64,000 nucleotides of DNA from an uncultured Mycoplasmatota bacterium (lineage in GTDB: Bacteria > Bacillota_I > Bacilli_A > RF39 > UBA660): contig CAOJEH010000001.1 in assembly GCA_948434005.1 (NCBI GenBank), positions 155,880 through 219,879 of the forward strand, in the 5' to 3' direction. Below, in pieces: positions 30,700 to 53,162 of this stretch. Every line of letters starts with the position of its first letter. The first letter of the stretch is position 1. A program made the translations under genes and the position numbers. A model generated the notes under the pieces. The model saw only the letters and a list, made by a program, of their open reading frames with translations. It made no database searches and was not told the origin of the DNA.

Positions 30700-30875
30700 T
30701 AATATTAATTTCTATTTAAGAGAGTTTACGCATGGTGTGAGTAAATATAGAATTAATATGAACTTGATTACCTATAAGTATTTTGGGTAAGACCGTTATC
30801 TCTATTAAGTGCATAGAAATATGAATTAAGGTGGTACCGCGATTTAATCGTCCTTATTTAAGGGCGTTTTTTTAT
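30700..30875 (+). promoter_or_regulatory. T-box riboswitch leader of the leuS operon
   Basis: AGAGAG and GGTGTGAGTA (stem I / AGUA box), F-box-like CCGTTA at 30793, T-box AATTAAGGTGGTACCGCG at 30824-30841, and terminator cgtccttatttaagggcg+T7 at 30849-30873. Confidence 0.8.
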
Positions 30876-30890
30876 TTTGAGGAGGGATTT

Positions 30891-31244: not shown

Positions 31245-34068
31245 TTATAAAAAAATAGAGGCAAAATGGCAAAAAAAATGGGAAGATGAAAAATCTTTTG
31301 TAGCAGATAATAATAGTACGAAGGAAAAATATTATTACTTAGTGGAGTTTCCTTATCCATCAGGTGCTGGACTTCATGTTGGACATTGTAGAAGTTATAC
31401 AGCTTTGGATGCTCTAGCTAGAAAAAAGAGGATGAATGGTTATAATGTTTTATTTCCAATGGGATGGGATGCTTTTGGAGCACCTGCAGAACAATATGCT
31501 ATTAAAAATCATATTCATCCAAGTGTAGCAGTTAAAGAAAATATTAAAACCTTCAAAGGACAAGTTAAATCACTAGGTTTATCAATAGATTGGACTAGAG
31601 AGTTTTCAACAACAGATCCAGAATATTATAAGTGGACTCAATGGCAATTTTTAAAATTCTTTGAAAAGGGTATGGCTTATAAAGCAAAGAAAAATATTAA
31701 CTGGTGTCCAAATTGTAAGATGGGTCTTTCTAATGAAGATTCATCAGGTGGAGTATGTGAAAGATGTGGTCATTCTGTTGAACAAAGAGAAAAAGAACAA
31801 TGGATGCTTAGAATGAGTGATTATGCAGAAGATTTAATCAAAGGATTAGATGATACAGACTTCCAAGAAAGAATAAAAACTGCTCAAATAAATTGGATAG
31901 GTAAATCTGAAGGTGCAGAAGTTAACTTTAAAGTAAAAGAAACTAATGAAGATTTAGTAGTATATACAACAAGACCTGATACTTTATATGGGGTTACTTT
32001 TATGGTAGTTGCACCTGAACATCCTATAATTGAAAAGAATAAAAATATTATATCTAATATGGATGAAATTAATTCTTATAAAGATGCTGCTAAAAATAAA
32101 ACAGAGTTTGAAAGAACTCAAGTAAATAAAGATAAAACAGGAGTAAAAATAGAAGGATTAACTGGAATAAATCCTATTACTAAAAAAGAAATTCCAATAT
32201 ATATATCAGACTATGTAATGATGAATTATGGTACAGGGGCTATTATGGCAGTGCCTGCTCATGACGAGAGAGATTTTGAATTTGCTAATAAGTTTGGAAT
32301 TGATATAATTCCTGTAATAGAACAAATTACAGGAACTCCTAGAGATGATGAAAAGAAGAAAAACAGTATAGTTGCAGTTTTATTTGATGAGGAAAACAAT
32401 AAATATTTAACTATTAATTGGGGTAATCTAGGAGGAAGATTATTTGTAGGCGGTACAAGAAAGGATAATGAAAGTCCTCTTGAATGTGCAATAAGAGAAA
32501 TAAAAGAAGAAACAGGATATACCGATATTACTTATATGCATGATATTTTCCCTATAAATCATCATTATTATGCTCATAATAAGAACCAAGCTTATGAAAT
32601 TGAATCTACTGGATTATTATTTAAGTTAAATAGTAATAAAAAAGTAGAAGTAGAGCTTGATGATGATGAAAAGGATAATTTTAAAGTTGAATGGGTAGAT
32701 AAAAATAAAATAGAAAAAGAAGTAGTTGATGAATTACATATTACTACATTTAGAAATTTACTAAAACCTACTGCATACATAGCGGATGGTAAAATGGTTA
32801 ATTCTGATATTCTAAATGGATTAACTAACAAAAAAGATTCTATAGAAAAAATGTTAGAGTATTTAGAAGAGAATAATCTAGGAAAAAGAAAAACAAATTA
32901 TAAACTTCAAGACTGGATTTTTTCTCGTCAAAGATTTTGGGGAGAACCTATTCCTTTAGTTCATTGCAAAGATTGTGGTTGGGTTGCAGTAGATGATAAA
33001 GATTTACCTGTAACTTTACCAGAAGTAGTTAACTATGAACCTACAGATGATGGAGAAAGCCCTCTAGCAGCAATTACCGATTGGGTAAATACAACTTGTC
33101 CTAAATGTGGTAATCCTGCTAAAAGAGAAACTGATACAATGCCAAACTGGGCAGGATCTTCATGGTATTGGCTAAGATATATGGATGCTCATAATGATAA
33201 AGAATTTGCAAGCAAAGATGCTTTAAAATATTGGGGTAAACTAGACTTTTATAATGGTGGAATGGAGCACGCAACTAGACATTTATTATATGCAAGATTT
33301 TGGAACCAATTTTTATATAACAATGGATTAGTTCCTAATAAAGAACCATTTAAAACTAGAGTATCACACGGAATGATTTTAGGTGAAGGTGGCGTAAAAA
33401 TGTCAAAATCACTTGGAAATGTAATTAACCCTAATGATATGATAAAAGAGTACGGAGCAGATGCACTTCGTTGTTATGAAATGTTTATAGGAGACTATGA
33501 AAAAGAAGTAGCATGGAGTGAACAAGGACTTAATGGTTGTAAAAGATTTATAGATAAAATAGTACGTATTGGAGATAAGTTATCTAATGATACTTCATAT
33601 ACAAAAGAATTAGAAAGTATAATTCATAAAACTATTAAGAAAGTTACAGAAGATATTGATAATATGAAATTTAATACTGCTGTATCTGCTCTTATGATTC
33701 TTTTAAATAAATATGAAGAACAAGATAAAATAACTAAAAAAGACTATAGAACATTCTTACTTTTATTTAATCCAATCGCTCCTCATATAACAGAGGAACT
33801 AAATGAAAAATATGATTTAGGTGAACAATTATGTAAGAGTAGTTGGCCAACTTATGATGATGAAAAAACAATAGATGAAGAAAAAGAAATAGCTGTTCAA
33901 GTAAATGGTAAAGTACGTGCTACTATGAAAATTAGTATTAATGAAGATGAAGAAGAGATAAAGAAAAAGGCTCTAGCTTTAGAAAATGTTATAAATCATA
34001 CTAAAGATAAAGAGATTATAAAGGTAATCGTAATAAAAGGTAAGATTGTAAATATAGTAGTTAAGTAA
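31237..34068 (+). CDS. leuS: Leucyl-tRNA synthetase carrying an inserted Nudix-hydrolase-like domain
   Basis: HIGH-type motif (LHVGH), the editing-domain TTRPDT and VPAHDERDFEFA segments, NYKLQDWIFSRQRFWGEPIP, and KMSKS. 943 aa. A ~147-aa insert (nt 32323-32763) contains a perfect Nudix box GGTRKDNESPLECAIREIKEETGY. Confidence 0.9.
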   Translation: MSDYKKIEAKWQKKWEDEKSFVADNNSTKEKYYYLVEFPYPSGAGLHVGHCRSYTALDALARKKRMNGYNVLFPMGWDAFGAPAEQYAIKNHIHPSVAVKENIKTFKGQVKSLGLSIDWTREFSTTDPEYYKWTQWQFLKFFEKGMAYKAKKNINWCPNCKMGLSNEDSSGGVCERCGHSVEQREKEQWMLRMSDYAEDLIKGLDDTDFQERIKTAQINWIGKSEGAEVNFKVKETNEDLVVYTTRPDTLYGVTFMVVAPEHPIIEKNKNIISNMDEINSYKDAAKNKTEFERTQVNKDKTGVKIEGLTGINPITKKEIPIYISDYVMMNYGTGAIMAVPAHDERDFEFANKFGIDIIPVIEQITGTPRDDEKKKNSIVAVLFDEENNKYLTINWGNLGGRLFVGGTRKDNESPLECAIREIKEETGYTDITYMHDIFPINHHYYAHNKNQAYEIESTGLLFKLNSNKKVEVELDDDEKDNFKVEWVDKNKIEKEVVDELHITTFRNLLKPTAYIADGKMVNSDILNGLTNKKDSIEKMLEYLEENNLGKRKTNYKLQDWIFSRQRFWGEPIPLVHCKDCGWVAVDDKDLPVTLPEVVNYEPTDDGESPLAAITDWVNTTCPKCGNPAKRETDTMPNWAGSSWYWLRYMDAHNDKEFASKDALKYWGKLDFYNGGMEHATRHLLYARFWNQFLYNNGLVPNKEPFKTRVSHGMILGEGGVKMSKSLGNVINPNDMIKEYGADALRCYEMFIGDYEKEVAWSEQGLNGCKRFIDKIVRIGDKLSNDTSYTKELESIIHKTIKKVTEDIDNMKFNTAVSALMILLNKYEEQDKITKKDYRTFLLLFNPIAPHITEELNEKYDLGEQLCKSSWPTYDDEKTIDEEKEIAVQVNGKVRATMKISINEDEEEIKKKALALENVINHTKDKEIIKVIVIKGKIVNIVVK

Positions 34069-34102
34069 AAAAAGAAATAGTAAATAAAATATGGAGGTTT
34101 AC

Positions 34103-35317
34103 ATGAACGATCAAATAAAAGATTCATTTGTTGTTGTAAGCGATTTTCATGGAGCAGATTGGGTTATGGATAAAATTAGAAGTCATTATATTAATGAATA
34201 TGAAAAAATATTTAATCTAGGGGATATAATAGACAGAGGCGAGCAACCATTTAAACTATTATTAGACTATATGGAATTATCAAAGCAAAATCCAGATAGA
34301 GTTATTTATGTACCAGGAAATCATGATAGTTTTATATATGGTGCATATATGGCTGCAGATGAAGAACAACGTTCCAATTATAGAACCTCATTAATACAAA
34401 ACGGAGGTTTAGAAACATATAAACAAGCAGAATATTTAAGGAAAACTAATCCTAGTAAATTTAATGAATTGATAGACTGGCTTGGTAGTCAGCCTCTACA
34501 AAGAGTGCATACATATGAAAAAAAGAAATATGCATTAGCGCATGCCTTTTTTAATCAGACAATATATAATAAAAATCCCAATTATTCATTAAAAGATTAT
34601 ATGAGGGATGTACACTATCCAAAGGGTCTGAAACAAAAAGAAGCTAATATACTTTGGTTTAGAAAAAATCATCCTACTCATGGATACTATAATCCAGCAG
34701 ATTTACCGAGTAATGATTATACTATGATTATAGGTCATACCGCTAATGCAAATGATTTAGGGTTATTCAATGTAGATGTAATATGTGTAGATGGTGCAGC
34801 CAATGAAAGAAGTCAACAAACAGGAAGTTACAGTACTAGAAAGTTTGACGGTGGAAGTGGGCATATGATAACAGTTTTTGGTGAACATTTAGATACATCA
34901 AATGATGATAAAACTAAATCCCAAGAAAGACAACATTTATCTATTAATTATGTACTAAATAATTTTATAAAGGATGTAAATACCAAATTGAATAGTGAAA
35001 CATATGCGCAAAATTTGTTATATAAATATGCATTTGGTATAGCAGGTGAAAATCATATTACAGGATCATATAGAGAGTTGATTTCAAAGTCAATAGGTGT
35101 AAGTGGAATATGTAGTTATTTGGGTCTTGATATTAATTGTGTAAATGAACAAAGAAGTATATATTCTGAAGCAATAAATATGTTAAATAATAGAAATATA
35201 CAAGAAGCAAAGGATTTAATTAGTAGTACTAATAATGAAGTATTAATAGGAGAAATAAATAAGCAGATATTAAAAATGGAAACGCCTCAATCATCATCAG
35301 GACAAAGAAGAAGATAA
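34103..35317 (+). CDS. Calcineurin-like metallophosphoesterase (ApaH/PrpE-like) with a ~150-aa C-terminal extension
   Basis: DFHG, GDIIDRG and GNHD metallophosphatase motifs. Start at 34103 (MNDQ, RBS ggagg). The track ORF starts 4 codons earlier. Confidence 0.65.
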   Translation: MNDQIKDSFVVVSDFHGADWVMDKIRSHYINEYEKIFNLGDIIDRGEQPFKLLLDYMELSKQNPDRVIYVPGNHDSFIYGAYMAADEEQRSNYRTSLIQNGGLETYKQAEYLRKTNPSKFNELIDWLGSQPLQRVHTYEKKKYALAHAFFNQTIYNKNPNYSLKDYMRDVHYPKGLKQKEANILWFRKNHPTHGYYNPADLPSNDYTMIIGHTANANDLGLFNVDVICVDGAANERSQQTGSYSTRKFDGGSGHMITVFGEHLDTSNDDKTKSQERQHLSINYVLNNFIKDVNTKLNSETYAQNLLYKYAFGIAGENHITGSYRELISKSIGVSGICSYLGLDINCVNEQRSIYSEAINMLNNRNIQEAKDLISSTNNEVLIGEINKQILKMETPQSSSGQRRR

Positions 35318-43722: not shown

Positions 43723-43751
43723 TTGAGCAATAAGCTCTTTTTTTGTATAAT
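43723..43751 (+). promoter_or_regulatory. Putative sigma-A promoter of the downstream four-gene operon
   Basis: TTGAGC at 43723-43728, a 17-nt spacer, TATAAT at 43746-43751. RBS agaggt before the ATG at 43771. Confidence 0.4.
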
Positions 43752-43770
43752 GAAACTAGAGGTATATATT

Positions 43771-44337
43771 ATGTATGAAAATATTAAAAGTCCAGAAGAA
43801 TTATTAAAGTTTATGAGTAATCATATTAATTATGGTTTTGTAGATGAAGATAAAAAGATATATGATTGTAATAATATGGATGAATTTGAAGAAGGTTGTA
43901 AAACTAAATGGAAATTATCGAGTCCAAAAAGATTAATAGATGTAGGATACGGGCATTGTTTTGACCAAGTAGAACTAGAAAGAGATTGGTTTTTAAATAA
44001 TGGATATAGTATAAAAACATTTTATATCTGGTTTGAACTTCCATATGATAATGAGTATACTACTCATACATATTTAGTATATAAGGATAAAGAAAAATAC
44101 TATTATTTTGAACACTCAGATTCATCTAACAGAGGAATTTATGAGTTTAATAGTTATGAAGAAGCGGTAAGATATAAAAAAAATAAACATATTGAATATA
44201 ATAAAAGATTTAATGTAGTAGGAGAAAAAGAACTAAAAAGTATTACTATTTATGAATATGAACAACCAAAATATGGTTTGAATTTTAATGAATTTATAGA
44301 AAATATATTATATAATGGAAAAATTATAGAAGTGTAG
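43771..44337 (+). CDS. Hypothetical protein with transglutaminase-like / papain-fold Cys...His...Asp arrangement
   Basis: GYGHCFDQVELERDWFLNNGY (Cys segment resembling TGase-like G.C..fA...R..GIPAR), then THTYLVY and FEHSD. Start at 43771 (MYENIKS) rather than the track start at 43723. Confidence 0.35.
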   Translation: MYENIKSPEELLKFMSNHINYGFVDEDKKIYDCNNMDEFEEGCKTKWKLSSPKRLIDVGYGHCFDQVELERDWFLNNGYSIKTFYIWFELPYDNEYTTHTYLVYKDKEKYYYFEHSDSSNRGIYEFNSYEEAVRYKKNKHIEYNKRFNVVGEKELKSITIYEYEQPKYGLNFNEFIENILYNGKIIEV

Positions 44338-44347
44338 AGGAATTAAT

Positions 44348-45784
44348 ATGAGAATAGGATTGGATATCGATAATGTAATTGCTAATTTTGATAAAACTGT
44401 ACTAGAAGAATTCAAAAAAGAAGATAAAAACAAAAGAAATAGTGGAATCATAAATCCAAAAGGAAGACACGTTGAGTATATGTTTGATTGGACTAAGGAA
44501 GAAGCTCAAGAGTTTTTTTATAAGAATATGGAAAGACTTGAAGAAATATTAGAACCTAGAGAAGATGCTAAATTATATATGGAAAAATTAATAGCGGATG
44601 GACATGAATTATTTTTAATATCACATCGAGTATATCCACATTATAAAAATCCAAAAGAAGTAACTTTGAAATGGTTAGAAAAATATAAAATACCATATAC
44701 AAAATTAATCTTATCAAAAGATACAGATAAAAGTTTAGAGTGTATTGAAAATAAAATCGATATCTTATTTGATGATTCTATTAATAATTGCAAAGCAGTT
44801 TTAAAAAATGGCATTTCTTCATGCATCATGGGAACAGTTCAAAATAAAAACTGTAAATCCGATTTTGAAAGAGTAGAAAATTGGGAAGAATTATATGAAA
44901 AAGTATGTGATTTAGCTGTAAAAAAGATGCCTAAATCACATATTATCCTAGATACAGATATAGATAATGAAGTAGATGACTGCTTTGCTCTAGATTATAT
45001 ATTAAATTCAAATGATAGATTGATATTAGATGCTGTAACTATCGCCCCATTTTATCATGAAAATGATATTTCTATAGAAGAAGGAATAGAAAACAGTGAA
45101 AATATTTGTAAAAGAATTTTTATGTTTAATAATATTGATAGTAAAAATATGATATATAAAGGTTCAACAGATTATTTTAAAAATGGTTATAGAAAAGAAA
45201 CCCCTGCAATTAAACGTATGGTAGAAGTAATTAATAAAAATGATTTAACTTATATCCTTTCGATAGGTGCAATAACGAATACAGCAGTATTACTATACTT
45301 ACATCCTGAATTAAAAAATAAGATTAAAGTTGTTTGGTTAGGTGGACATAGTATTATGAGCCTAGATAATAGTGAATATAATTTTAAACAGGATGTGGAA
45401 GCAGTAAAATATGTATATAATTCTAATGTTGATTTAACAGTAATTCCATGTCAAGGAGTAGCCTCAAATTTAACAACTTCAATAGAAGAATTATCTAGTT
45501 ATTTAGATTTAAACAGTAAAACAGGAAAATATTTATATAAAAGATTTTATAATGATGGAAAACATGGAATAACTAAAAGAAGAGTTATTTGGGATATTAG
45601 TGTTATTGCTTATATGATTAATCCTTATTGGTTTGATTTTAGAATAATGAATATCCCAAAAATAAATGATGATTTATCCTATGATTTTTCTAAAGAAACA
45701 AACCATCAAATAAAGTTTGCTGTAGGATTAAAACAAAATAAAATATTTTATGACTTGTTTGAAAAAGTAAATAAGAAACTATAG
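44348..45784 (+). CDS. Fusion protein: N-terminal HAD/NT5C-type 5'(3')-(deoxy)nucleotidase + C-terminal inosine-uridine-preferring nucleoside hydrolase
   Basis: N-terminus: GLDIDNVIANFD (HAD motif I DxD) and ILFDDS (motif IV). C-terminus from about aa 195: ILDTDIDNEVDDCFAL (IUNH aspartate cluster). 478 aa. Confidence 0.65.
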   Translation: MRIGLDIDNVIANFDKTVLEEFKKEDKNKRNSGIINPKGRHVEYMFDWTKEEAQEFFYKNMERLEEILEPREDAKLYMEKLIADGHELFLISHRVYPHYKNPKEVTLKWLEKYKIPYTKLILSKDTDKSLECIENKIDILFDDSINNCKAVLKNGISSCIMGTVQNKNCKSDFERVENWEELYEKVCDLAVKKMPKSHIILDTDIDNEVDDCFALDYILNSNDRLILDAVTIAPFYHENDISIEEGIENSENICKRIFMFNNIDSKNMIYKGSTDYFKNGYRKETPAIKRMVEVINKNDLTYILSIGAITNTAVLLYLHPELKNKIKVVWLGGHSIMSLDNSEYNFKQDVEAVKYVYNSNVDLTVIPCQGVASNLTTSIEELSSYLDLNSKTGKYLYKRFYNDGKHGITKRRVIWDISVIAYMINPYWFDFRIMNIPKINDDLSYDFSKETNHQIKFAVGLKQNKIFYDLFEKVNKKL

Positions 45785-45797
45785 TATAGGAGTAAAT

Positions 45798-46325
45798 ATG
45801 AAGTTATATGTAATTAGACATGGACAAACTGAAAAAAATAGAAATCATATAATCGCAGATATAGAAGAAGATATAAATGAAACAGGTATTAAACAAGCTA
45901 TAATAACTGGTAAAGAATTAAAGAAGAAGGATATAGATTTAATTATATGTTCACCTTCTAAAAGAACAAAACATACATTAAAATTACTTAATTTAGATTC
46001 TGATATAGAAGTTAAATATGATGATAGATTAATAGAAAGAGATATGGGTATTTATGAAAATAGTAAATTTGATGATTTAGATTGGAATCTATTTTGGAAT
46101 TATTATGATATAAAGTATAAAAATTTAGAATCTATGAAGAGTGTATATGATAGAATTTCAAATCTATTAGATGAGTTAAAAGAAAAATATCAAAACAAAA
46201 ATATATTATTAATAACTCATGGAGGATGTTTTAGAGCAATTTATTGGTACCTTAAAGGTATTCCAACTAATGGCAATGTTCCACATGATTTAGGTAACTG
46301 TGAGATATGGGAAGAAAGTTTATAG
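45798..46325 (+). CDS. Short histidine phosphatase (phosphoglycerate-mutase superfamily), paralog A
   Basis: YVIRHGQT (catalytic RHG) and LITHGG second His. 175 aa. Confidence 0.7.
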   Translation: MKLYVIRHGQTEKNRNHIIADIEEDINETGIKQAIITGKELKKKDIDLIICSPSKRTKHTLKLLNLDSDIEVKYDDRLIERDMGIYENSKFDDLDWNLFWNYYDIKYKNLESMKSVYDRISNLLDELKEKYQNKNILLITHGGCFRAIYWYLKGIPTNGNVPHDLGNCEIWEESL

Positions 46326-46334
46326 AGGTGTAAT

Positions 46335-46868
46335 ATGAAATTATATGTAATTAGACATGGATATACTGATACTAATAAATTAGATATTTATAATGGTAAA
46401 TTAGATGAAGATATTAATGAAGTAGGAATAAAACAAGCAGAAGAAGCATCAAAAATAGTAAAAGATTTAAAACTAGATTTAATTATTTGCTCTCCTCTTT
46501 TAAGAACAAGACATACTTGTCGAATAGTAAATAAAAATAATATTCCTGTAATATATGATGAGAGAATAGAAGAAAGAGATTGTGGAAGTCTAACTAATAC
46601 TAAAATGAATGAATTCTATTATACTGAATATTGGAATTACTACTCTAAAGTAGAGGTAGAAGGATTAGAAACAGTCCCACACCTATTTGACAGAGTTCAT
46701 AAGTTTCTAGATGAAATAAAAGAAAAATATAAGAATAAAAATATATTATTAGTAACCCATGGTGGAGTAGCAAGAGCAATACACTTCTACTTTAATGATT
46801 TACCAACAGATGGACAAGTAGAAAAATATCTACCTGATAATTGTGAAATAAGAGAGTATAACAATTAA
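46335..46868 (+). CDS. Short histidine phosphatase (PGM superfamily), paralog B
   Basis: YVIRHGYT and LVTHGG. 177 aa. Tandem with paralog A, 9-nt gap. Confidence 0.7.
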   Translation: MKLYVIRHGYTDTNKLDIYNGKLDEDINEVGIKQAEEASKIVKDLKLDLIICSPLLRTRHTCRIVNKNNIPVIYDERIEERDCGSLTNTKMNEFYYTEYWNYYSKVEVEGLETVPHLFDRVHKFLDEIKEKYKNKNILLVTHGGVARAIHFYFNDLPTDGQVEKYLPDNCEIREYNN

Positions 46869-46897
46869 TTGTAAAAATTTAGTGTGTGTGTTATAAT
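46869..46897 (+). promoter_or_regulatory. Near-consensus sigma-A promoter with extended -10 (TTGTAA-N17-TGtTATAAT)
   Basis: TTGTAA at 46869-46874, 17-nt spacer, TG at 46889-46890, TATAAT at 46892-46897. Starts immediately after the stop of the upstream gene. Confidence 0.55.
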
Positions 46898-46931
46898 AGA
46901 CAAAAAATTTTGAAAGGAATAGAGTGTTTTT

Positions 46932-47375
46932 ATGGGTTCGAATAATAAGTTAAAAGAATTATGTCTATATGCTATAGTTCCATTCATATATATAGTTGGA
47001 AGTCCATTAGTAATAGCCGGTATAGGTAGCGCAGTAGCGTATGAATTGCATGAAAAAAAAGAAGAAGTAAGTATTGAAGATACGAATACAGATAATATAT
47101 ATACTAATTCAGATGGAGAATTGTGCTGTAAATTTGATGTGGGAGAACATAGAATTATTATTTCTAGTGATGATAAATTTTATCACAAGATGGAGGCAGT
47201 AGAAGGTTACGAAATACAAAATGTTGAGATTAATGATTCAAAAAATAATAATAGAGTTACTTATATAAATAAAAAGCCTGTAGTAGCAAAAGCAACTGGA
47301 GTAAATAAAGATGGAAAAGTAGAATTTGCTAATTTTGGTGAAGTAGTAAAAAATAAAGTGAAATCCATAAAATAA
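46932..47375 (+). CDS. Hypothetical membrane-anchored protein
   Basis: 147 aa with N-terminal TM (LYAIVPFIYIVGSPLVIAGIG). RBS aaaggaa. Confidence 0.4.
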   Translation: MGSNNKLKELCLYAIVPFIYIVGSPLVIAGIGSAVAYELHEKKEEVSIEDTNTDNIYTNSDGELCCKFDVGEHRIIISSDDKFYHKMEAVEGYEIQNVEINDSKNNNRVTYINKKPVVAKATGVNKDGKVEFANFGEVVKNKVKSIK

Positions 47376-47454
47376 TACTCTTTTCATTTTAGTAATATTA
47401 TGATATATTTATAATATAATTTTCAGTGATTAATTATAAGTAGTATTTTTAAAT

Positions 47455-47625
47455 ACTTTTAGAGACTTAGTGGTTGGTGCAAACTAAGATACTTAAAAAT
47501 ATGAAATACAGATTATGAGAAAAATCGTTTATCGCGTTAAGATATTAGAGGTAGCATAAGCTATAAATTAAGGTGGTACCACGAACTATTCGTCCTTATG
47601 ATAGGGATGAATAGTTTTTATTTTA
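47455..47625 (+). promoter_or_regulatory. T-box riboswitch leader of the CYTH-tyrS operon
   Basis: AGAGAC near 47463, F-box-like CGTTA near 47534, T-box AATTAAGGTGGTACCACG at 47566-47583, and a terminator (12-bp stem aactattcgtcc/gggatgaatagtt + T-run) at 47583-47625. Confidence 0.75.
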
Positions 47626-47636
47626 GGAGGGATTTT

Positions 47637-48182
47637 ATGCATACAGAATATGAAGTAAGAGTACTAGAAATTAATGAAGAAGAAATGAAAAAGAAATTAG
47701 AAGAAATAAATGCTAAGTTTGAATGGGAACATATCCAAAAACGTTATGTTTATGATTTTATTCCAAAAGAAGATAAAAAATGGATAAGATTAAGAACTAA
47801 TGGTGATAAGACAACGTTAACAATAAAAAATATTACTACATCAAGAATAGATGGAACTCAGGAATTAGAAGTTGAAGTAGATAACTTTGAAAGAACAAAT
47901 TTAATTTTGAAAGAGTTAGGATATATTCCAAAGGGATATCAAGAGAATAAAAGAAGACAATATACTCTAAATGGAGTAGAAATTGATATTGACTCTTGGC
48001 CTAATATTCCTACTTATCTAGAAATAGAAGGACCTAGTGAAGAAGCTGTTTATTATACATTAGATTTATTAGGAATTGAAAAAGAAAAGACTACTACAAA
48101 AGATGTAGATCGAATATATTTAGATTATGGATATAACTTATCAGAGATTAAAGACCTTAAATTAGAGGAGGATAGAAAATGA
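47637..48182 (+). CDS. CYTH-domain protein (CyaB/thiamine-triphosphatase-like triphosphate tunnel metalloenzyme)
   Basis: N-terminal EYEVR (ExExK-type), IRLRTNG...TLTIK, ELEVEVDNFE...LGY, and KRRQYTLNGVEIDIDSW...YLEIEG. ATG at 47637 with RBS taggaggg. Stop overlaps the tyrS start by 4 nt. Confidence 0.55.
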   Translation: MHTEYEVRVLEINEEEMKKKLEEINAKFEWEHIQKRYVYDFIPKEDKKWIRLRTNGDKTTLTIKNITTSRIDGTQELEVEVDNFERTNLILKELGYIPKGYQENKRRQYTLNGVEIDIDSWPNIPTYLEIEGPSEEAVYYTLDLLGIEKEKTTTKDVDRIYLDYGYNLSEIKDLKLEEDRK

Positions 48183-49411
48183 AAATATATGAAGATTTAA
48201 AATGGAGAGGTTTAATTAAGGATACAGCAGGAGAAGATATTGCTGATAAATTAAATCAAGGTGGATTAACCTTTTATATTGGAGCCGATCCTTCAGCCGA
48301 TAGCTTACATATTGGACAACTTCCTACTTTCTTAGTAGCTGAAAGATTAAGAAGAGCAGGACATAAGCCAATTATTTTAGTAGGTGGCGCAACTGGTCGT
48401 GTTGGAGATCCTAGAGGTACTAAAGAAAGAGAAAAATCTGATGTAAAAGTTGTAGAGCACAATTTTGAAAAAATAAAACTACAAATGAAGAAATTATTTG
48501 GAGAAGATACTTTAGTAGTTAACAATTATGATTGGTTTAAAGAGTATAATTTTATTGATTTTTTAAGAGATGTTGGTAAATATGTAAATGTCTCATATAT
48601 GATTAATAAAGACTTAGTAAAAAGACAAATGGAGTCAGGGATTTCTTATGCAGAGTTTTCTTATATGTTAATACAAGGCTATGACTTTAAATATATTCAT
48701 GACCATTATGGAGCTACATTACAATTTGGTGGATCTGATCAATGGGGTAACTTAACTACAGGGATAGAATTAATTAGAAAGTTAAATGATGAAGTAGTAT
48801 ATGCTTTCTCTTGCCCACTAACTCTTGATGCAAGTGGAAAAAAGATTGGAAAGAGTGAAGGAAATGCTTTATGGTTAGATAAAGAGAAGACATCTAGCTA
48901 TGAATTATATCAATATTTAATTAACTTTGAAGATGTAATGATGGAAACATATTTAAAAGTATATACATTCTTATCAAAAGAAGAAATAGAAAATATTTTA
49001 AATGAACATAGTAAAGCTCCAGAAAAAAGATTAGCTCAAAAAACATTAGCAGAAGAAGTAATAACTTATTTACATGGAGAATCATCATATCATGAAGCAG
49101 TAGAAATAAGTGAAGCTTTATTTAGTGGAGATATAAAAAGATTAAACGGTAAAGAAATAGAAATGGCATTTAAAGGATTAACTCCAAAGACTATAGAAGA
49201 AGATATTAATATAGTTGATTTATTAGTTGAAAAAGAAATATGTAAAAGTAAAAGAGAAGCTCGTGAATTTATTTCTAATGGTTCAATCACAGTTAATGGA
49301 GATAAAGTAACAGATAATGGATTTAATATTACAAAAAGTGTAGCTATAGAACAAAAATATATAGTTATAAGACGTGGAAAAAAGAAATATTACATAGTAA
49401 CGTTTGAATAA
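48179..49411 (+). CDS. tyrS: Tyrosyl-tRNA synthetase
   Basis: HIG-type motif (SLHIGQL), KIGKS (KMSKS-type), and a C-terminal S4-like domain. 410 aa. Confidence 0.9.
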   Translation: MKIYEDLKWRGLIKDTAGEDIADKLNQGGLTFYIGADPSADSLHIGQLPTFLVAERLRRAGHKPIILVGGATGRVGDPRGTKEREKSDVKVVEHNFEKIKLQMKKLFGEDTLVVNNYDWFKEYNFIDFLRDVGKYVNVSYMINKDLVKRQMESGISYAEFSYMLIQGYDFKYIHDHYGATLQFGGSDQWGNLTTGIELIRKLNDEVVYAFSCPLTLDASGKKIGKSEGNALWLDKEKTSSYELYQYLINFEDVMMETYLKVYTFLSKEEIENILNEHSKAPEKRLAQKTLAEEVITYLHGESSYHEAVEISEALFSGDIKRLNGKEIEMAFKGLTPKTIEEDINIVDLLVEKEICKSKREAREFISNGSITVNGDKVTDNGFNITKSVAIEQKYIVIRRGKKKYYIVTFE

Positions 49412-49450
49412 TTATAAAAATAGATACAGTTTATTATAATAGGTGATAAT

Positions 49451-50671
49451 ATGAAAAGTAATTATAAAAGAATAATAAAAGCAGTCGTTATTATATGTAT
49501 CATTGTTCTAATAATAGATATATCATATCTTGTTTATAAAAAAATAGTTAATAAACCTAAAGAAACTTCTTTTGATAGTATTAATTCCTTTGAGGTTATA
49601 GATGAAGGTTATATATCAGTAGGTAGTAACAATAATAATAAAAATAAGTATGAGAAAGCTAAAATAACTAAGTATAATAATAAATTAGAAAAAGTATGGG
49701 AAAAACTATATAATAAGAAATATAATAGTAGTTATTTTGGTATAAAACAAGATAATGACTACTTTATAGCAGTAGGAGATTATGAGTCTAATAGTGAAGA
49801 AAATAAAGATAGTGTAAGATCTGCTTTGATTGTAAAATATGATAGTGAGGGAAAAATACTAAATGAGAAGAAATTTCAAGTATTAGGTGATTCTAAATTT
49901 ACTAACTTACTAGTAATACCAGATGGTTATTTAGTAATTGGTCAAAGTATTTATGAGAATATGACGTTAGGATTATCAGACGAAGGTGGAGCTTTCTTAA
50001 TAAAATATGATAAAGATTTAAATGAAATATGGAAAAGTAATTATGGAGGCTCTAAGTCTGCAATATATAATGATTTAATAGTAGTAGATAATTACATTTA
50101 TGCAGTAGGTAAAGATGCTACAAATACAGGAATAATATCAAAGTATAATATGAATGGTGAAAGACAAAAGACTACTACCTATAGCTATACTGATAGATTT
50201 GGTTTTACTGGTATTGTAAGTATTGATAATAATTTATATGTGGTGGGTGCTAAAAAAGTTACTGAAGATAAAAATGATTATGATACAGATGGACTTATAG
50301 TTAAATATGATTTGGACTGTAATAAATTAAAAGAAACTACTTATAAAGGAAAAGGAATAGATCGCTTTAATAAGTTAATCTCAGATAATAATAATCTTGC
50401 AATAGTAGGTCAAACAGGTATTTATAATAAAGATAAATCAACAGATAAAATAAATGTATTTTCTTATAATGGTATATTTGCAATCTATAGTAAAAATTTA
50501 GATAAAATAAAACTAGATAATTATGGGACTGATATTGATGACTATTTTACAGATATAAAGAAAATAAGTAATAAATATATTGTGAGTGGATACGGAGTGT
50601 ATGAAGAAAATAGTTATATATCAAAACTAATTGAATATAAAACATCTGGTAAATTGATAGGAGAAAGCTAA
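49451..50671 (+). CDS. Membrane-anchored protein with seven degenerate ~45-aa repeats (predicted beta-propeller)
   Basis: N-terminal TM. Seven repeats of the type (Y/L)xx(V/A)(G/S)....(15-20 aa)....(I/L)(V/I)KYD..G (e.g. YFIAVGD...LIVKYDSEGK, YIYAVGK...ISKYNMNGE, LYVVGAK...LIVKYDLDCN). Confidence 0.45.
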   Translation: MKSNYKRIIKAVVIICIIVLIIDISYLVYKKIVNKPKETSFDSINSFEVIDEGYISVGSNNNNKNKYEKAKITKYNNKLEKVWEKLYNKKYNSSYFGIKQDNDYFIAVGDYESNSEENKDSVRSALIVKYDSEGKILNEKKFQVLGDSKFTNLLVIPDGYLVIGQSIYENMTLGLSDEGGAFLIKYDKDLNEIWKSNYGGSKSAIYNDLIVVDNYIYAVGKDATNTGIISKYNMNGERQKTTTYSYTDRFGFTGIVSIDNNLYVVGAKKVTEDKNDYDTDGLIVKYDLDCNKLKETTYKGKGIDRFNKLISDNNNLAIVGQTGIYNKDKSTDKINVFSYNGIFAIYSKNLDKIKLDNYGTDIDDYFTDIKKISNKYIVSGYGVYEENSYISKLIEYKTSGKLIGES

Positions 50672-51204
50672 TGAAAATTGTGTTAGTAAGACATGGGAAA
50701 ACGGATTATAATGTTGAATGTAAAACACAAGGTAGAATAAATATTCCTTTAAATGATTCAGGAAGAAGAGAAGTTCAAAAATTAAAATATAAGATGAAGG
50801 ATATGGATTTTGATATATGTTTTTCCTCTCCCTTAATTAGAGCGGTAGAAACAGCTATGATTTTAGTAGGAGATAGAGTAGAGATAAAAATAGATGATAG
50901 ATTAATTGAAAGAAATATGGGTAATCAAGAAGGTATGCCATATAAAGACTATGATGGGAATGCACATTGGGATTATAATCTTAATTTAGATGATAATGGT
51001 ATTGAACCTGTACAAGATATAATAAAAAGAGCATCAGATTTTATAGATTATTTAAAAGAAAATTATAATGATAAAGATATATTAATAGTTTCGCATGGTG
51101 CAACTATAAGAGCACTACATCATATACTTCATAATACTGATTTAAATAGTAATTTATCAGATTTTAGTATAGGAAATTGTTATACAGAAACAATAATAAT
51201 ATAA
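50671..51204 (+). CDS. Short histidine phosphatase (PGM superfamily), paralog C
   Basis: IVLVRHGKT (RHG) and IVSHGA. 177 aa. Its ATG overlaps the stop of the upstream repeat protein (taATGa). Confidence 0.7.
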   Translation: MKIVLVRHGKTDYNVECKTQGRINIPLNDSGRREVQKLKYKMKDMDFDICFSSPLIRAVETAMILVGDRVEIKIDDRLIERNMGNQEGMPYKDYDGNAHWDYNLNLDDNGIEPVQDIIKRASDFIDYLKENYNDKDILIVSHGATIRALHHILHNTDLNSNLSDFSIGNCYTETIII

Positions 51205-51221
51205 AAAGAAAATTCCTAAAA

Positions 51222-51635
51222 CTAGGAATTTTTTTGACTACATTTTACAAAATGCTTATTTATAGGTACTTGTTCAATAGAATTATCATTAGATATAAGT
51301 ACCTCTAAAGGTGTATCTCCACTAACTATAGAATATTTACTAACAGTTTTATTTTTAGAAGGAATTATTTCATATATAGGTCTTTCTTCATTATCAATTT
51401 TTTCATAAGAACTATTAGGATCATAAAAATAAGCCTTACTATCTGTATATTCTAAATAACTAGTATTAGCAAGTGAAGGTGCAAAATGAGATAAATAGTT
51501 ATCCATAAAACCAATTTGAATATCTTTAGAAAATATAGATTTATATAAAACATAAGTATCCCATATTTTATTAAATTTTGGTAATTCTTTTTCAGAAATT
51601 GCTACAAGAGTAAGTGAGCTTTTATTAGTTTTCAT
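51222..51635 (-). CDS. Hypothetical protein
   Basis: 137-aa ORF. No recognisable motif. Confidence 0.35.
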   Translation of the reverse strand: MKTNKSSLTLVAISEKELPKFNKIWDTYVLYKSIFSKDIQIGFMDNYLSHFAPSLANTSYLEYTDSKAYFYDPNSSYEKIDNEERPIYEIIPSKNKTVSKYSIVSGDTPLEVLISNDNSIEQVPINKHFVKCSQKNS

Positions 51636-51718
51636 TATATAAAGACTCCTTTCTTTAGTGGCTATATTCTAACACAGGATGACTAAATAGTCAATAAAAA
51701 AGGATTATCATGTAATCC

Positions 51719-52321
51719 TTATTTATTATAAAATTCAACTATTAATGCTTCATTAATATCAGCATTTAGTTCACTTCTTTCAGGTAATCTTACATAGGTA
51801 CCTTCCATTTTCTTATCATCGTAGTTTATGAATTCAACTCTTTTTGTTACTTTTGATAAAGCTTCAAGAACTACTTTTAATTCTTTATCCTTATCTTTTA
51901 ATGATATAACATCTCCAATTTTAACTCTGTATGAAGGAATGTCAACTTTCTTACCATTAACAGTAACATGTCCATGATTAACTAATTGTCTAGCACCACG
52001 TCTAGTTGAAGCAAAACCGATACGATAAACTAAGTTATCTAATCTTGATTCAAGTAATCTTAAGAAGTTAGTACCATGAATACCTTTGATTTTAGAAGCT
52101 TCAACGAATGTTTTCTTAAGTTGTCTTTCACTAAGTCCATACATAAATCTAACTTTTTGTTTTTCTTTTAATTGAACACCGTAGTCTGATAATTTACCAC
52201 GACGAGCATTACCATGTTGACCAGGACCATATGGACGACGAGCTAGTTCTTTACCAGTCTCAGTTGTTGAAAATCCAACACGACGACTTCTTTTGTATTC
52301 AGAACCTGTATATCTTGACAT
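51719..52321 (-). CDS. rpsD: 30S ribosomal protein S4
   Basis: [18 protein letters not shown]...S4 domain. 200 aa from the internal Met; the track ORF extends 28 codons upstream through a probable leader region. Confidence 0.9.
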
Positions 52322-52523
52322 ATTGTTCTCCTTTCTATAAATATTACATAAATACTTAAAGTAATCTAGTCGAACCTTAGGGAGTTTTTCTTCACCTAAT
52401 GGCAACGGTTACTAAAACCGAAAAACACTTTAATGAACTCTAGATTATGCCATCTAAGTCAATATGCAGTATTATTATATATAAATTATATGAAATAGTC
52501 AAGTTTTCTTGACTATCATATGT

Positions 52524-53162
52524 CTATTTACGTTTTCTTTTATATGTTCTAAAGAAAAGGTCTTTTTCTATACTATGTGTAGGAAGTTGCTGTTCTATTA
52601 CTTCTCTATCTAAATTATTTAAAATCATATTTTTAAATTTTTCATAAACTTTATTTCCCCATGCCCATTGCTCATTTAGTGGTTTATCAGGGATTGTAAG
52701 TTCAAATGCACTTCTTGAAGACATATCTTCTCCTAACATACCGAAGGTCAAAGCAAGAAATTTAAATTCATTAATATCAAATGTTTTTGCAATAACTTTG
52801 ATATCAACTTTTCTTAAAAGTGCTATACAAGTTTCATCTGCACCATAATTACTTGTATCATAGTTTGATAATATGTTAGATATTCTTTCTTTTTTTTGTT
52901 CCCATTCGTTAAACTCTAAATCAGTTTTCGCAAGTTTTTGTTCATAGTATTCCTTTCCATATTCTGTTAGATGATAGATACGGCTTCTACCTGCCTTTTT
53001 AATACTAAAAATAGGTGGTTCGATTGTTTGATATCTTTTAATTCTATTTGATAAAGAATTTTGCGAAGTTTCTAGTAGTTTTGCTAATTCGCCCTGTGTT
53101 ATGCCATCATTAAAATATAAATTTTTAATAAAAGAATCTAAACATTTAGTATGTTTTTCCAT
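52524..53162 (-). CDS. HTH-domain putative transcriptional regulator
   Basis: N-terminal GITQGELAKLLETSQNSLSNRIKRY helix-turn-helix. 212 aa from MEKHTK. Confidence 0.45.
   Translation of the reverse strand: MEKHTKCLDSFIKNLYFNDGITQGELAKLLETSQNSLSNRIKRYQTIEPPIFSIKKAGRSRIYHLTEYGKEYYEQKLAKTDLEFNEWEQKKERISNILSNYDTSNYGADETCIALLRKVDIKVIAKTFDINEFKFLALTFGMLGEDMSSRSAFELTIPDKPLNEQWAWGNKVYEKFKNMILNNLDREVIEQQLPTHSIEKDLFFRTYKRKRK

What the first reader, a model, noticed from the sequence alone, without database searches (positions are those of the whole stretch)
47455..49411. CYTH triphosphate-tunnel protein co-transcribed and translationally coupled with tyrS behind a T-box leader
The T-box AATTAAGGTGGTACCACG with a downstream terminator precedes a 181-aa ORF with CYTH hallmarks: N-terminal EYEVR (ExExK-type), RLRTNG..TLTIK, ELEVEVDNFE and KRRQYTL..IDIDSW..YLEIEG. 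Its stop overlaps the tyrS ATG by 4 nt. Together with the leuS locus, both aaRS operons in this window pair an aminoacyl-tRNA synthetase with a nucleotide polyphosphate hydrolase or cyclase-type enzyme (Nudix + PPP phosphoesterase there, CYTH here). That is an unusual recurring theme and may indicate regulated nucleotide/polyphosphate signalling linked to tRNA charging.
Basis: partly seen in the sequence, partly recalled or inferred. Interest (0 to 1): 0.6.

Follow-up and report, generated by a model that had tools for sequence, protein, structure and literature searches.

The report
T-box operon pairing triphosphatase with TyrRS
A tyrosine-tRNA-sensing RNA switch in an uncultured gut bacterium controls a predicted triphosphate-cleaving enzyme together with the tyrosyl-tRNA synthetase; the pairing is real and conserved, but it arose once in one lineage and shows no sign of cyclic-nucleotide signalling.

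Summary
Rfam finds a T-box leader at 47417-47600 with a UAC (Tyr) specifier, followed by a terminator. Next comes a 181-aa CYTH/triphosphate-tunnel ORF (47637-48182). Its stop overlaps the tyrS ATG by 4 nt (ATGA), and its last codons encode the tyrS Shine-Dalgarno sequence.

Of the 80 closest species-level genomes, 65 have a T-box-like Tyr leader, then CYTH, then tyrS. 53 of them keep the ATGA overlap. These CYTH genes form one clade. Relatives outside it have neither a T-box nor any synthetase nearby, so the linkage arose once and was inherited.

By the published CYTH motif test the protein is not a class IV adenylate cyclase. It has no HF motif, keeps the central Arg, and has an intact ExE. 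It is a predicted metal-dependent triphosphatase. It also carries the WxRxR motif otherwise typical of thiamine triphosphatases, which suggests an organic triphosphate substrate.

The Nudix at the leuS locus is a rare domain inserted inside LeuRS. The phosphoesterase downstream of leuS is not conserved there. The gene between the Leu T-box and leuS is a small membrane ORF.

This is a new variant of a T-box operon, of moderate interest.

The parts
47381..47409 (+). Candidate sigma-70-type promoter of the leader (TTTTCA-17-TATATT with TG)
   Evidence: Consensus scan. It ends 8 nt before the first position of the T-box model. This is a pattern match only, and the number of hits does not exceed that in shuffled sequence.
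47417..47600 (+). T-box leader (Stem I, specifier loop, Stem III, antiterminator)
   Evidence: Rfam RF00230, 99.8 bits against a gathering score of 93, full-length model match. Homologous leaders lie upstream of CYTH in relatives.
47507..47509 (+). Specifier codon UAC (Tyr), followed by purine A47510
   Evidence: Position in the cmscan alignment. GAA-N(1-2)-UAC-R is present upstream of CYTH in 65 of 65 linked loci.
47566..47583 (+). Conserved T-box sequence AAUUAAGGUGGUACCACG, with the UGGU bulge that pairs with the tRNA 3' end (NCCA)
   Evidence: The core GGTGGNACCRCG is found in 58 of 65 loci, and variant cores in the other 7.
47583..47624 (+). Intrinsic terminator hairpin (47583-47617) plus U-tract. 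Its 5' arm is shared with the antiterminator.
   Evidence: 16 pairs, the only terminator-like site in 46800-49800. (MFE -21.2 kcal/mol, z -3.14).
47625..47631 (+). Shine-Dalgarno sequence AGGAGGG of the CYTH gene
   Evidence: Read directly from the sequence, 5 nt before ATG 47637.
47637..48182 (+). CYTH / triphosphate tunnel metalloenzyme gene (181 aa)
   Evidence: Pfam PF01928. AF2 model with pLDDT 92.4. Foldseek matches to PH1012, the Pfu CYTH protein and SaTTM at E 1e-12 to 1e-9. Catalytic residues are invariant.
48165..48172 (+). Shine-Dalgarno sequence GAGGAGGA of tyrS, embedded in CYTH codons L-E-E-D-R-K
   Evidence: An SD is present in 64 of 65 loci. The C-terminal tail has pLDDT below 50, and its third codon positions are the most conserved in the gene.
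48179..49411 (+). tyrS, tyrosine--tRNA ligase (410 aa). Its ATG overlaps the CYTH stop (ATGA).
   Evidence: TIGR00234, 364.5 bits. Pfam tRNA-synt_1b + SYY_C-terminal + S4. The -4 overlap is kept in 53 of 65 loci.
49451..50671 (+). 406-aa ORF of unknown function with an N-terminal hydrophobic segment; a possible further operon member
   Evidence: No Pfam, NCBIfam or PADLOC hit. No terminator between tyrS and this ORF. Present in many but not all linked loci.
50671..51204 (+). His_Phos_1 histidine phosphatase (177 aa); a possible last operon member
   Evidence: Pfam PF00300, E 5e-41. The best NCBIfam match is cobC-like, below its cut-off. It follows tyrS, directly or after the 406-aa ORF, in most linked loci. 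No terminator-like site was found in 49300-52600, which spans the region from the end of tyrS past this gene.

Best explanation
This is a T-box-controlled operon of an uncultured, low-GC gut Bacilli lineage. Its first gene is an active CYTH-family triphosphate tunnel metalloenzyme, and its second gene is tyrS.

Mechanism:
1. Transcription starts near 47416.
2. When tRNA-Tyr is charged, the 47583-47617 hairpin terminates the leader.
3. Uncharged tRNA-Tyr pairs its GUA anticodon with the UAC specifier and its 3' end with the UGGU bulge. This stabilises the antiterminator and lets RNA polymerase read into CYTH and tyrS, and probably on into the 406-aa ORF and the His_Phos_1 gene.
4. tyrS is translated from an SD that lies inside the last CYTH codons, with an ATGA stop/start overlap, so the two proteins are made from one message in a coupled way.
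5. The CYTH protein is predicted to remove the terminal phosphate of a triphosphate substrate by the two-metal TTM mechanism. It is not predicted to make cAMP. Its invariant Trp in a WxRxR motif suggests a substrate with an aromatic head group, such as a nucleoside tri- or tetraphosphate or thiamine triphosphate, rather than bare PPPi.

The linkage to tyrS arose once in the ancestor of this lineage and has been kept by vertical descent.

What is shown: the RNA element, the fold, the motifs, the gene overlap, the conservation and the single origin. What is inferred: antitermination, co-transcription, coupling, enzyme activity and substrate class.
For: RNA element: T-box above the Rfam gathering score, with a Tyr specifier and a terminator. 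Equivalent leaders precede CYTH in relatives.

Enzyme: CYTH above the Pfam cut-off. AF2 model with pLDDT 92.4 and an all-beta barrel. Best structural matches are archaeal CYTH proteins and SaTTM; sequence E-values to SaTTM are 3e-8 for the single protein and 5e-16 for the profile. E4, E6, R/K8, R51, R53, K64, E76, E78, R106, D119, E129 and E131 are invariant or nearly so in 344 family members. The motif rules of Vogt et al. 2021 (PMC8233210) give: no HFxxxxExExK, central Arg kept, ExE intact. That means not AC-IV. W49-x-R51-x-R53 aligns with SaTTM A54/R56/R58 and with ThTPase W53/R55/R57.

Junction: the ATGA overlap and the SD inside the CYTH tail are conserved. No promoter-like hit lies on the + strand inside CYTH, and there is no terminator between the genes.

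Selection: 65 of the 80 closest species genomes are linked. CYTH is more conserved than TyrRS (mean identity 71% against 61%; CYTH is higher in 57 of 65 loci).

Single origin: the linked genes form one clade in an NJ tree. Unlinked relatives have unrelated neighbours.
Against: - No transcript or enzyme data exist. A weak internal tyrS promoter cannot be excluded from sequence alone.
- The third-position conservation scan was uninformative apart from the SD.
- Seven linked loci have variant T-box cores that fall below the Rfam gathering score, as do 5 of a further 17 sampled.
- The hallmark Lys is Arg here (ExExR).
Model coordinates could not be inspected.
- The NJ tree has no support values.
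- A single origin does not by itself exclude a real functional link.
Confidence: 0.7

Rival explanations
1. Starvation-signal processing. The CYTH enzyme hydrolyses an organic triphosphate that accumulates on amino-acid starvation, such as thiamine triphosphate or pppGpp. Placing it under a T-box ties turnover of that signal directly to tRNA-Tyr charging.
For: - The WxRxR motif, otherwise described as the ThTPase signature, is invariant.
- ThTP is made in E. coli only on amino-acid starvation (review PMC8615392).
- Another Firmicute CYTH gene, yjbK, lies next to the alarmone synthetase gene relQ in S. pyogenes, and YjbK cross-links to RNA (PMC12234827).
- CYTH is under stronger constraint than TyrRS.
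Against: - The same W-containing family occurs without any T-box or synthetase in all sampled sister lineages, and in CPR bacteria and DPANN archaea according to the source names.
- No thiamine or alarmone gene was identified among the annotated neighbours of the operon.
- The pppGpp idea rests only on my own reasoning.
- The yjbK family is only distantly related (3sy3 and 2gfg, E 0.1-0.5).
Confidence: 0.12
2. By-product clearance, a stricter form of the first reader's theme. The enzyme removes PPPi, adenosine tetraphosphate or Ap4A-type compounds formed by aminoacyl-tRNA synthetases. The Nudix and PPP phosphoesterase at leuS would do the same job.
For: - SaTTM-type enzymes hydrolyse PPPi, tetraphosphate and NTPs.
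- The leuS-linked Metallophos protein has weak, sub-threshold similarity to the ApaH and PrpE Ap4A hydrolases.
- LeuRS carries an intact Nudix box.
- A CYTH-Nudix fusion exists in this family (P0202). A Nudix gene in one relative and a pyrophosphatase gene in another lie next to CYTH.
Against: - The linkage to a synthetase arose once.
- The LeuRS Nudix insert has only 9 detectable homologues.
- The Metallophos gene is absent downstream of leuS in L093.
- The ORF between the Leu T-box and leuS is a small membrane protein, not a hydrolase.
- The ApaH-like scores are far below their cut-offs (28 against 176 bits).
Confidence: 0.08
3. Class IV adenylate cyclase. The protein makes cAMP as a second messenger when tRNA-Tyr is uncharged.
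For: The best NCBIfam hit is TIGR00318 cyaB (E 3e-12). Some sources label relatives 'adenylate cyclase class 2/IV'. Yersinia AC-IV structures are among the fold matches.
Against: - The TIGR00318 score of 46.6 is below the cut-off of 57.95.
- All three AC-IV determinants fail. Only three residues precede ExExR, so there is no HFxxxx. R51 is kept where cyclases have C, V or L. E131 is kept where cyclases have Ala.
- The closest characterised relative, SaTTM, makes no cyclic nucleotide.
Confidence: 0.04
4. Neutral hitch-hiking. The CYTH gene was inserted between the leader and tyrS by chance, and it stays there only because the overlapping junction is hard to break. T-box control has no adaptive meaning for the enzyme.
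For: - Single origin.
- The same lineage also has an unrelated small ORF wedged between the Leu T-box and leuS with an overlapping junction.
- T-boxes preceding unrelated or unknown genes are documented: 8% in Wels et al. 2008.
- Gene content around the operon is fluid, as shown by the window-specific insertion at 43723-47375.
Against: - The arrangement has survived divergence down to 50-60% TyrRS identity in at least 65 species.
- The junction has been reshaped in 12 loci (gaps of -1 to +5 nt, and 420 nt in L023) without loss of the order.
- The enzyme is highly constrained.
- None of these points proves that the regulation is adaptive.
Confidence: 0.25

Closest known systems
T-box leader of tyrS (Bacillus subtilis tyrS type, Rfam RF00230)
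   Same: Full-length match to the T-box model. UAC specifier followed by a purine, UGGU bulge, and competing antiterminator and terminator, upstream of the tyrosyl-tRNA synthetase operon.
   Different: The first gene after the leader is a CYTH enzyme, not the synthetase. tyrS is the second cistron, with its ribosome-binding site inside the CYTH gene. No paper in the searched library mentions CYTH or a class IV cyclase together with T-box or tyrS.
SaTTM (Saci_0718) and the Pyrococcus CYTH proteins PH1012 and Pfu-838710 (cluster 3 of Vogt et al. 2021)
   Same: Closest solved relatives by sequence and fold. Single-domain proteins of about 180 aa. Same ExExK-type strand, RxR, Lys and ExE residues, so the same two-metal gamma-phosphate hydrolysis is expected.
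   Different: Only 24-27% identity. Trp replaces the small residue (SaTTM A54) before RxR. Arg replaces the hallmark Lys in the linked clade. N104 sits where SaTTM has K110. The hosts are bacteria (gut Bacilli MAGs, CPR), not thermophilic archaea.
Metazoan 25-kDa thiamine triphosphatase (THTPA)
   Same: Shares the W-x-R-x-R motif, in which the Trp stacks on the thiazolium ring. ExE is intact. Tyr and Lys residues lie near the positions of the catalytic dyad.
   Different: Overall similarity is very weak (hhalign probability 16%; Foldseek TM 0.6, 15% identity). ThTPase activity is so far described only in metazoans. No activity data exist here.
Class IV adenylate cyclase (CyaB, YpAC-IV)
   Same: Same superfamily and fold, and the best NCBIfam hit.
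   Different: All three cyclase-specific motifs are absent, and the score is below the family cut-off.
YjbK-type CYTH proteins of Firmicutes (next to relQ and nadK)
   Same: A CYTH gene of unknown role in Firmicutes, positioned beside a gene of the amino-acid-starvation response. YjbK cross-links to RNA.
   Different: A different CYTH subfamily (3sy3 and 2gfg match only at E 0.1-0.5, TM about 0.5). It has no T-box and is not coupled to a synthetase.
ORFs of unknown function between T-boxes and synthetase genes ('X-tRNA ligase related hypothetical', Wels et al. 2008)
   Same: A non-synthetase ORF sits as the first gene of a T-box-controlled synthetase operon. The leuS operon in this window is built the same way.
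   Different: Here the ORF is a recognisable, catalytically intact enzyme that is more conserved than the synthetase itself.

Membership tests
T-box leader (RF00230) | Covariance-model score at or above the Rfam gathering score | tested here: met
   99.8 bits against 93, full model 1-219. Among linked relatives, L001 and L006 (109.6 bits), L023 and 12 of a further 17 sampled loci also pass.
T-box leader (RF00230) | Specifier loop with a codon that matches the regulated amino acid, followed by a purine | tested here: met
   GAA-A-UAC-A at 47503-47510. The same pattern is present in 65 of 65 linked loci.
T-box leader (RF00230) | Conserved T-box sequence with a UGGN bulge, and mutually exclusive antiterminator and terminator | tested here: met
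   AAUUAAGGUGGUACCACG at 47566-47583. The terminator at 47583-47617 shares its 5' arm with the antiterminator helix of the Rfam structure.
T-box leader (RF00230) | Read-through dependent on uncharged tRNA | not testable with these tools
   Needs in vitro transcription with tRNA-Tyr or reporter assays.
CYTH / triphosphate tunnel metalloenzyme (PF01928) | Profile score above the Pfam gathering score | tested here: met
   33.7 bits against 23.2.
CYTH / triphosphate tunnel metalloenzyme (PF01928) | N-terminal ExExK motif | tested here: met
   E4-Y-E6-V-R8. Arg replaces Lys in the linked clade, while Lys predominates in relatives below 55% identity. Both Glu residues are invariant.
CYTH / triphosphate tunnel metalloenzyme (PF01928) | Eight-stranded beta-barrel tunnel fold with a C-terminal plug helix | tested here: met
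   AF2 model with pLDDT 92.4. It has eight long strands plus helices, including C-terminal helices. Foldseek probability is 1.00 to CYTH structures, TM 0.72-0.79.
CYTH / triphosphate tunnel metalloenzyme (PF01928) | Metal-dependent triphosphate hydrolysis | not testable with these tools
   Needs enzymology.
Class IV adenylate cyclase (CyaB, TIGR00318) | HFxxxxExExK extension of the N-terminal motif | tested here: not met
   Only M-H-T precede E4, and no Phe is present.
Class IV adenylate cyclase (CyaB, TIGR00318) | First Arg of xRxR replaced by a small neutral residue | tested here: not met
   R51 is present in 342 of 344 aligned family members.
Class IV adenylate cyclase (CyaB, TIGR00318) | Second Glu of the beta8 ExE replaced by Ala | tested here: not met
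   E129-I-E131. E131 is conserved in 340 of 344 sequences.
Class IV adenylate cyclase (CyaB, TIGR00318) | NCBIfam equivalog score above its cut-off | tested here: not met
   46.6 bits against 57.95.
Thiamine triphosphatase (THTPA type) | W/YxRxR motif with an aromatic residue that stacks the thiazolium ring | tested here: met
   W49-I-R51-L-R53. W is present in 328 of 344 sequences. It aligns to SaTTM A54 and to ThTPase W53.
Thiamine triphosphatase (THTPA type) | Significant overall sequence similarity to THTPA | tested here: inconclusive
Foldseek E 2e-7, TM about 0.6, 15% identity.
Thiamine triphosphatase (THTPA type) | Specific hydrolysis of ThTP | not testable with these tools
   Needs enzymology.
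Inorganic triphosphatase TTMs (SaTTM, NeuTTM, CthTTM type) | Both Arg of xRxR and both Glu of ExE present | tested here: met
   R51, R53, E129 and E131.
Inorganic triphosphatase TTMs (SaTTM, NeuTTM, CthTTM type) | Small residue at the position before xRxR | tested here: not met
   Trp49 stands in place of Ala or Ser.

The most novel reading that the evidence does not exclude
The CYTH protein is the first bacterial counterpart of a thiamine-triphosphatase-like enzyme, or more generally a hydrolase for a starvation-linked organic triphosphate such as ThTP or pppGpp. In this lineage a T-box riboswitch wires its synthesis directly to the charging state of tRNA-Tyr. That would be a new output of the T-box system: control of a small-molecule signal rather than of amino-acid supply.
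Probability: 0.1. Interest if true: 0.75.

Novelty: new variant of a known kind. Interest (0 to 1): 0.4.

Why it matters
T-box riboswitches are thought to control amino-acid supply genes: synthetases, biosynthesis and transport. Here one controls a well-conserved phosphohydrolase of unknown substrate, which is the first cistron of the tyrS operon in at least 65 uncultured gut Bacilli species.

The enzyme belongs to a large uncharacterised CYTH subfamily that also occurs in CPR bacteria and DPANN archaea. It is defined by a Trp in the position that gives mammalian thiamine triphosphatase its specificity. That makes it a concrete target for enzymology. It also corrects the common 'adenylate cyclase class 2/IV' label on these proteins.

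If the substrate turns out to be a starvation-linked triphosphate, the operon would link tRNA charging to small-molecule signalling. If not, it is an example of how operon architecture freezes a chance gene capture.

Tried and rejected
1. Class IV cyclase reading. Rejected on three motif tests and a sub-threshold equivalog score.

2. 'Recurring nucleotide-polyphosphate theme'. I checked the leuS locus. The Nudix is an internal LeuRS domain, the Metallophos gene is not conserved in L093, and the ORF next to the leader is a small membrane protein.

3. Recurrence of CYTH-synthetase adjacency outside the clade. I sampled 14 unlinked contexts: L067-type, L072, L077, L083-L085, L087, L089, L091, L092, L096-L098 and the P0347 locus. 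No synthetase and no T-box was found.

4. Anti-phage defence role. There were no PADLOC hits.

5. Internal tyrS promoter. The consensus scan found none on the + strand inside CYTH. The third-position conservation profile showed only the SD peak and was otherwise uninformative.

6. Tool failures:
- The first wide alignment (A2) was too divergent for the genome scan, so the narrower A3 was used.
- The afdb50 fold library was unavailable.
- The profile search of PDB sequences did not reach ThTPase, so hhalign was run against a sequence recalled from memory, with a weak result.
- Residue-level placement of the Tyr/Lys dyad and of the DxY motif against SaTTM and ThTPase was not reliable, and I make no claim about it.

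7. Literature searches for CYTH with T-box, tyrS or aminoacyl-tRNA synthetase, and for LeuRS with Nudix, found nothing relevant.
Full report
**Observation.** Rfam's T-box model matches 47417-47600 on the + strand at 99.8 bits (gathering score 93, E 8e-21, full-length).

- In the cmscan alignment the specifier loop reads GAA-A-UAC-A. UAC lies at 47507-47509 and is followed by a purine, so the leader is tyrosine-specific.
- The conserved T-box sequence AAUUAAGGUGGUACCACG lies at 47566-47583.
- The only terminator-like site in 46800-49800 is a 16-pair hairpin at 47583-47617 followed by a T-run. It folds at -21.2 kcal/mol, z = -3.1 against shuffles. Its 5' arm is the 3' strand of the antiterminator in the Rfam structure.
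- A promoter-like site (47381-47409) ends just before the model start. This is a consensus match only.
- AGGAGGG (47625-47631) precedes ATG 47637. The longer ORF from 47598 listed mechanically starts inside the terminator, and all homologues start at MHTEYEV.
- The 181-aa product matches Pfam CYTH above its cut-off (33.7 against 23.2 bits).
- Its TGA (48180-48182) overlaps the ATG (48179-48181) of a 410-aa ORF that is unambiguously TyrRS (TIGR00234, 364 bits).

**What the protein is.** An AlphaFold model built on 25 homologues is confident (pLDDT 92.4, pTM 0.86) and is a beta-barrel with interspersed helices.

- Foldseek against the PDB gives as best matches the Pyrococcus CYTH proteins (2dc4 and 1yem, E about 1e-12, TM 0.72-0.79). 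Next come the Sulfolobus triphosphate tunnel metalloenzyme SaTTM, then class IV cyclases, ThTPases and plant TTMs.
- Sequence searches of the PDB agree.
- In 344 family members from 35% to 96% identity, the tunnel residues are invariant or nearly so: E4, E6, R/K8, R36, R51, R53, K64, E76, E78, Q102, E103, N104, R106, D119, E129 and E131.

Vogt et al. 2021 (PMC8233210) derived three motifs that separate CYTH activities.
1. Class IV cyclases need HFxxxxExExK. Here only M-H-T precede E4.
2. Cyclases have a small residue in place of the first Arg of xRxR. Here R51 is kept.
3. Cyclases have Ala in place of the second Glu of the beta8 ExE. Here E131 is kept.

The NCBIfam cyaB equivalog scores 46.6 bits, below its cut-off of 57.95. 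The protein is therefore not a class IV cyclase. SaTTM, the closest characterised relative, hydrolyses PPPi, tetraphosphate and NTPs and makes no cyclic nucleotide.

The residue before xRxR is a Trp (W49; W in 328 of 344 sequences). Vogt et al. and the Bettendorff review (PMC8615392) describe this W/YxRxR motif as the ThTPase signature, in which the Trp stacks on the thiazolium ring. They report a small residue at this position in other TTMs. Because W49, R51 and R53 alternate on one strand (E48-55 in the model), W49 should face the tunnel like the two arginines. That is an inference from strand periodicity, not a measured geometry.

I therefore predict a two-metal gamma-phosphate hydrolase whose substrate has an aromatic or heterocyclic head group. 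The substrate itself is unknown.

**Conservation of the arrangement.** A scan of one genome per GTDB species found at least 596 loci encoding relatives, and the best 80 were kept. Results for these 80:

- In 65, tyrS follows CYTH immediately. 53 have the ATGA overlap, and 11 have gaps of -1 to +5 nt. One (L023) has a 420-nt gap without a second T-box.
- The tyrS Shine-Dalgarno GAGGAGG lies in the last CYTH codons (L-E-E-E/D-R-K) in 64 of 65. That tail is disordered in the model, has the most conserved third codon positions in the gene, and is absent from unlinked relatives.
- All 65 have GAA-N-UAC-R upstream. 58 have the canonical T-box core, and the other 7 have variant cores plus a terminator.
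- Rfam's gathering score is reached in L001, L006 and L023 and in 12 of a further 17 sampled linked loci. No locus has a T-box between CYTH and tyrS.
- Across the 65 loci CYTH is more conserved than TyrRS: mean identity to the window proteins is 71% against 61%, and CYTH is higher in 57 loci.
- Synteny is trmB, four unknown ORFs, T-box, CYTH, tyrS, sometimes the 406-aa ORF, His_Phos_1, then rpsD on the other strand.
- No terminator-like site was found between tyrS and the end of His_Phos_1, so the transcript may include those genes.
- The window has a lineage-specific insertion upstream (43723-47375).

The organisms are uncultured gut MAGs. They are labelled Bacilli, Mycoplasmatota, Tenericutes or Candidatus Faecimonas.

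**Is the linkage general?** No.

- In an NJ tree (no support values) all tyrS-linked CYTH genes form one clade.
- The 15 unlinked loci among the best 80 (61-64% identity) have no tyrS within 4 kb. Four of them were scanned with Rfam and have no T-box. Their neighbours vary: Fe-hydrogenase, acetyl-CoA carboxylase, LysR, GGDEF, YebC and serpin genes.
- Eight more distant members were examined, including a Jacksonbacteria (CPR) member. Other relatives are labelled Patescibacteria or Woesearchaeota by their sources. These eight have unrelated neighbours.
- The only faint hints are a convergent inorganic pyrophosphatase gene (L096), a convergent Nudix gene (L098), and single-cluster fusions of this CYTH to Nudix, ASCH, DUF1653 and DUF3658 domains. 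These point to nucleotide or phosphate metabolism, not to tRNA charging.

The capture of CYTH by the tyrS leader therefore happened once and was inherited.

**The 'recurring theme' with leuS.** The second T-box (30683-30858, 95.2 bits) is followed by a 117-aa hydrophobic ORF with no family match (30891-31244). This ORF overlaps the leuS ATG at 31237.

- The Nudix domain is not a separate gene. It is inserted in LeuRS after the editing domain (aa 378-494, with an intact Nudix box GGTRKDNESPLECAIREIKEETGY).
- A search with the insert found only 9 proteins. Several are LeuRS fragments.
- In the relative L093 the same T-box, small ORF and leuS order is kept, again with an ATGA junction, and LeuRS carries the insert. 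Downstream of leuS, however, lie rpmE and rpiB, not the Metallophos gene.
- The Metallophos protein resembles ApaH and PrpE only far below their cut-offs.

What the two operons share is therefore an extra ORF wedged between a T-box and a synthetase gene with an overlapping junction. That pattern was noted for streptococci by Wels et al. 2008, where 8% of T-boxes precede unknown or unrelated genes. They do not share a nucleotide-polyphosphate enzyme.

**Explanation and rivals.**

*Best supported (0.7).* A Tyr T-box controls a polycistronic message, CYTH then tyrS and perhaps more. tyrS translation is coupled to CYTH. The CYTH protein is an active TTM phosphohydrolase and not a cyclase. The linkage is a single ancestral capture that has since been maintained.

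*Rivals about why it is there.*
- Neutral hitch-hiking (0.25).
- Hydrolysis of a starvation-linked organic triphosphate such as ThTP or pppGpp (0.12). ThTP is made in E. coli on amino-acid starvation. The pppGpp idea is my own, by analogy with the yjbK-relQ adjacency.
- Clearance of synthetase by-products (0.08).
- Cyclase signalling (0.04).

The probabilities of the 'why' rivals overlap with the main statement. The main statement commits to the regulatory and catalytic mechanism but not to the substrate.

**Novelty.** No paper in the searched library combines CYTH or class IV cyclase with T-box, tyrS or aminoacyl-tRNA synthetases. T-box operons and CYTH enzymes are both known, but the combination is not described, nor is this W-containing bacterial CYTH subfamily. 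I rate it a new variant of a known kind, with interest 0.4.

Noticed in passing
window 31237-34068 (Nudix part about 32368-32718): LeuRS is 943 aa and carries a complete NUDIX domain inserted just after the CP1 editing domain. The domain matches PF00293 at E 9e-10 and has an intact Nudix box GGTRKDNESPLECAIREIKEETGY. Only 9 homologues of the insert were found among 5.8 billion proteins, and several are LeuRS fragments. The relative L093 (LeuRS about 60% identical) has the insert too. No paper on this was found.
   Followed up: partly
window 30683-31244; L093 3700-4280: The Leu T-box (95.2 bits) is followed by a 117-aa hydrophobic ORF with no family match. This ORF overlaps the leuS start. The same order, with an ATGA junction, is present in L093, where the ORF is frameshifted in that assembly. 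So a second synthetase operon in this lineage also has an ORF wedged between leader and synthetase.
   Followed up: partly
window 43723-47375: Compared with most related genomes, the window has an insertion between the conserved 135-aa ORF and the Tyr T-box. It holds a 204-aa unknown ORF, an NT5C + IU_nuc_hydro fusion (478 aa), two tandem His_Phos_1 paralogues and a 147-aa unknown ORF. With the third His_Phos_1 after tyrS, this makes a local concentration of nucleotide and phosphatase genes.
   Followed up: partly
window 49451-51204; L001 7873-9573: A His_Phos_1 phosphatase follows tyrS in most linked genomes, directly or after a variable unknown ORF of about 380-406 aa. Its best NCBIfam match is cobC-like, at 104 bits against a cut-off of 163. 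No terminator was detected, so it may belong to the T-box operon.
   Followed up: partly
P0202, P0151, P0266, P0128, P0140 (representatives): Single 50%-identity clusters of this CYTH subfamily are fused to NUDIX, ASCH, DUF1653, or DUF1835 + DUF3658 domains. A separate DUF1653 gene also lies near CYTH in L091. These may be hints to a nucleotide or RNA substrate, or they may be gene-calling artefacts.
   Followed up: no
L054 1-191; L060 3720-4000; L018, L022, L024, L027 about 3720-4000; L065: Seven linked genomes have T-box-like leaders that fall below the Rfam gathering score. L054 and L060 have a much shortened Stem I and an AAGGAUGGUACCGUG core. The L018 group has an extra hairpin inside Stem I and an ACCAUG core. 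L065 has GGUGGUAACGCG.
   Followed up: partly
L023 4529-4963: One linked genome has a 420-nt spacer between CYTH and tyrS instead of the overlap, with no second T-box in it. The content of the spacer was not examined.
   Followed up: no
P0273, P0305, P0358; L087: Members of the same W-containing CYTH subfamily (about 50% identity) are labelled by their sources as Candidatus Jacksonbacteria, Patescibacteria and Woesearchaeota. The family is thus shared among small-genome bacteria and archaea, and it is commonly mislabelled 'adenylate cyclase class 2/IV'.
   Followed up: no
window 34091-35317: The 408-aa Metallophos protein after leuS has only weak, sub-threshold similarity to the ApaH and PrpE Ap4A hydrolases and to Ser/Thr phosphatases. 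It also has a marginal PADLOC hit (PDC-S10, E 0.0014). It is not downstream of leuS in L093.
   Followed up: partly
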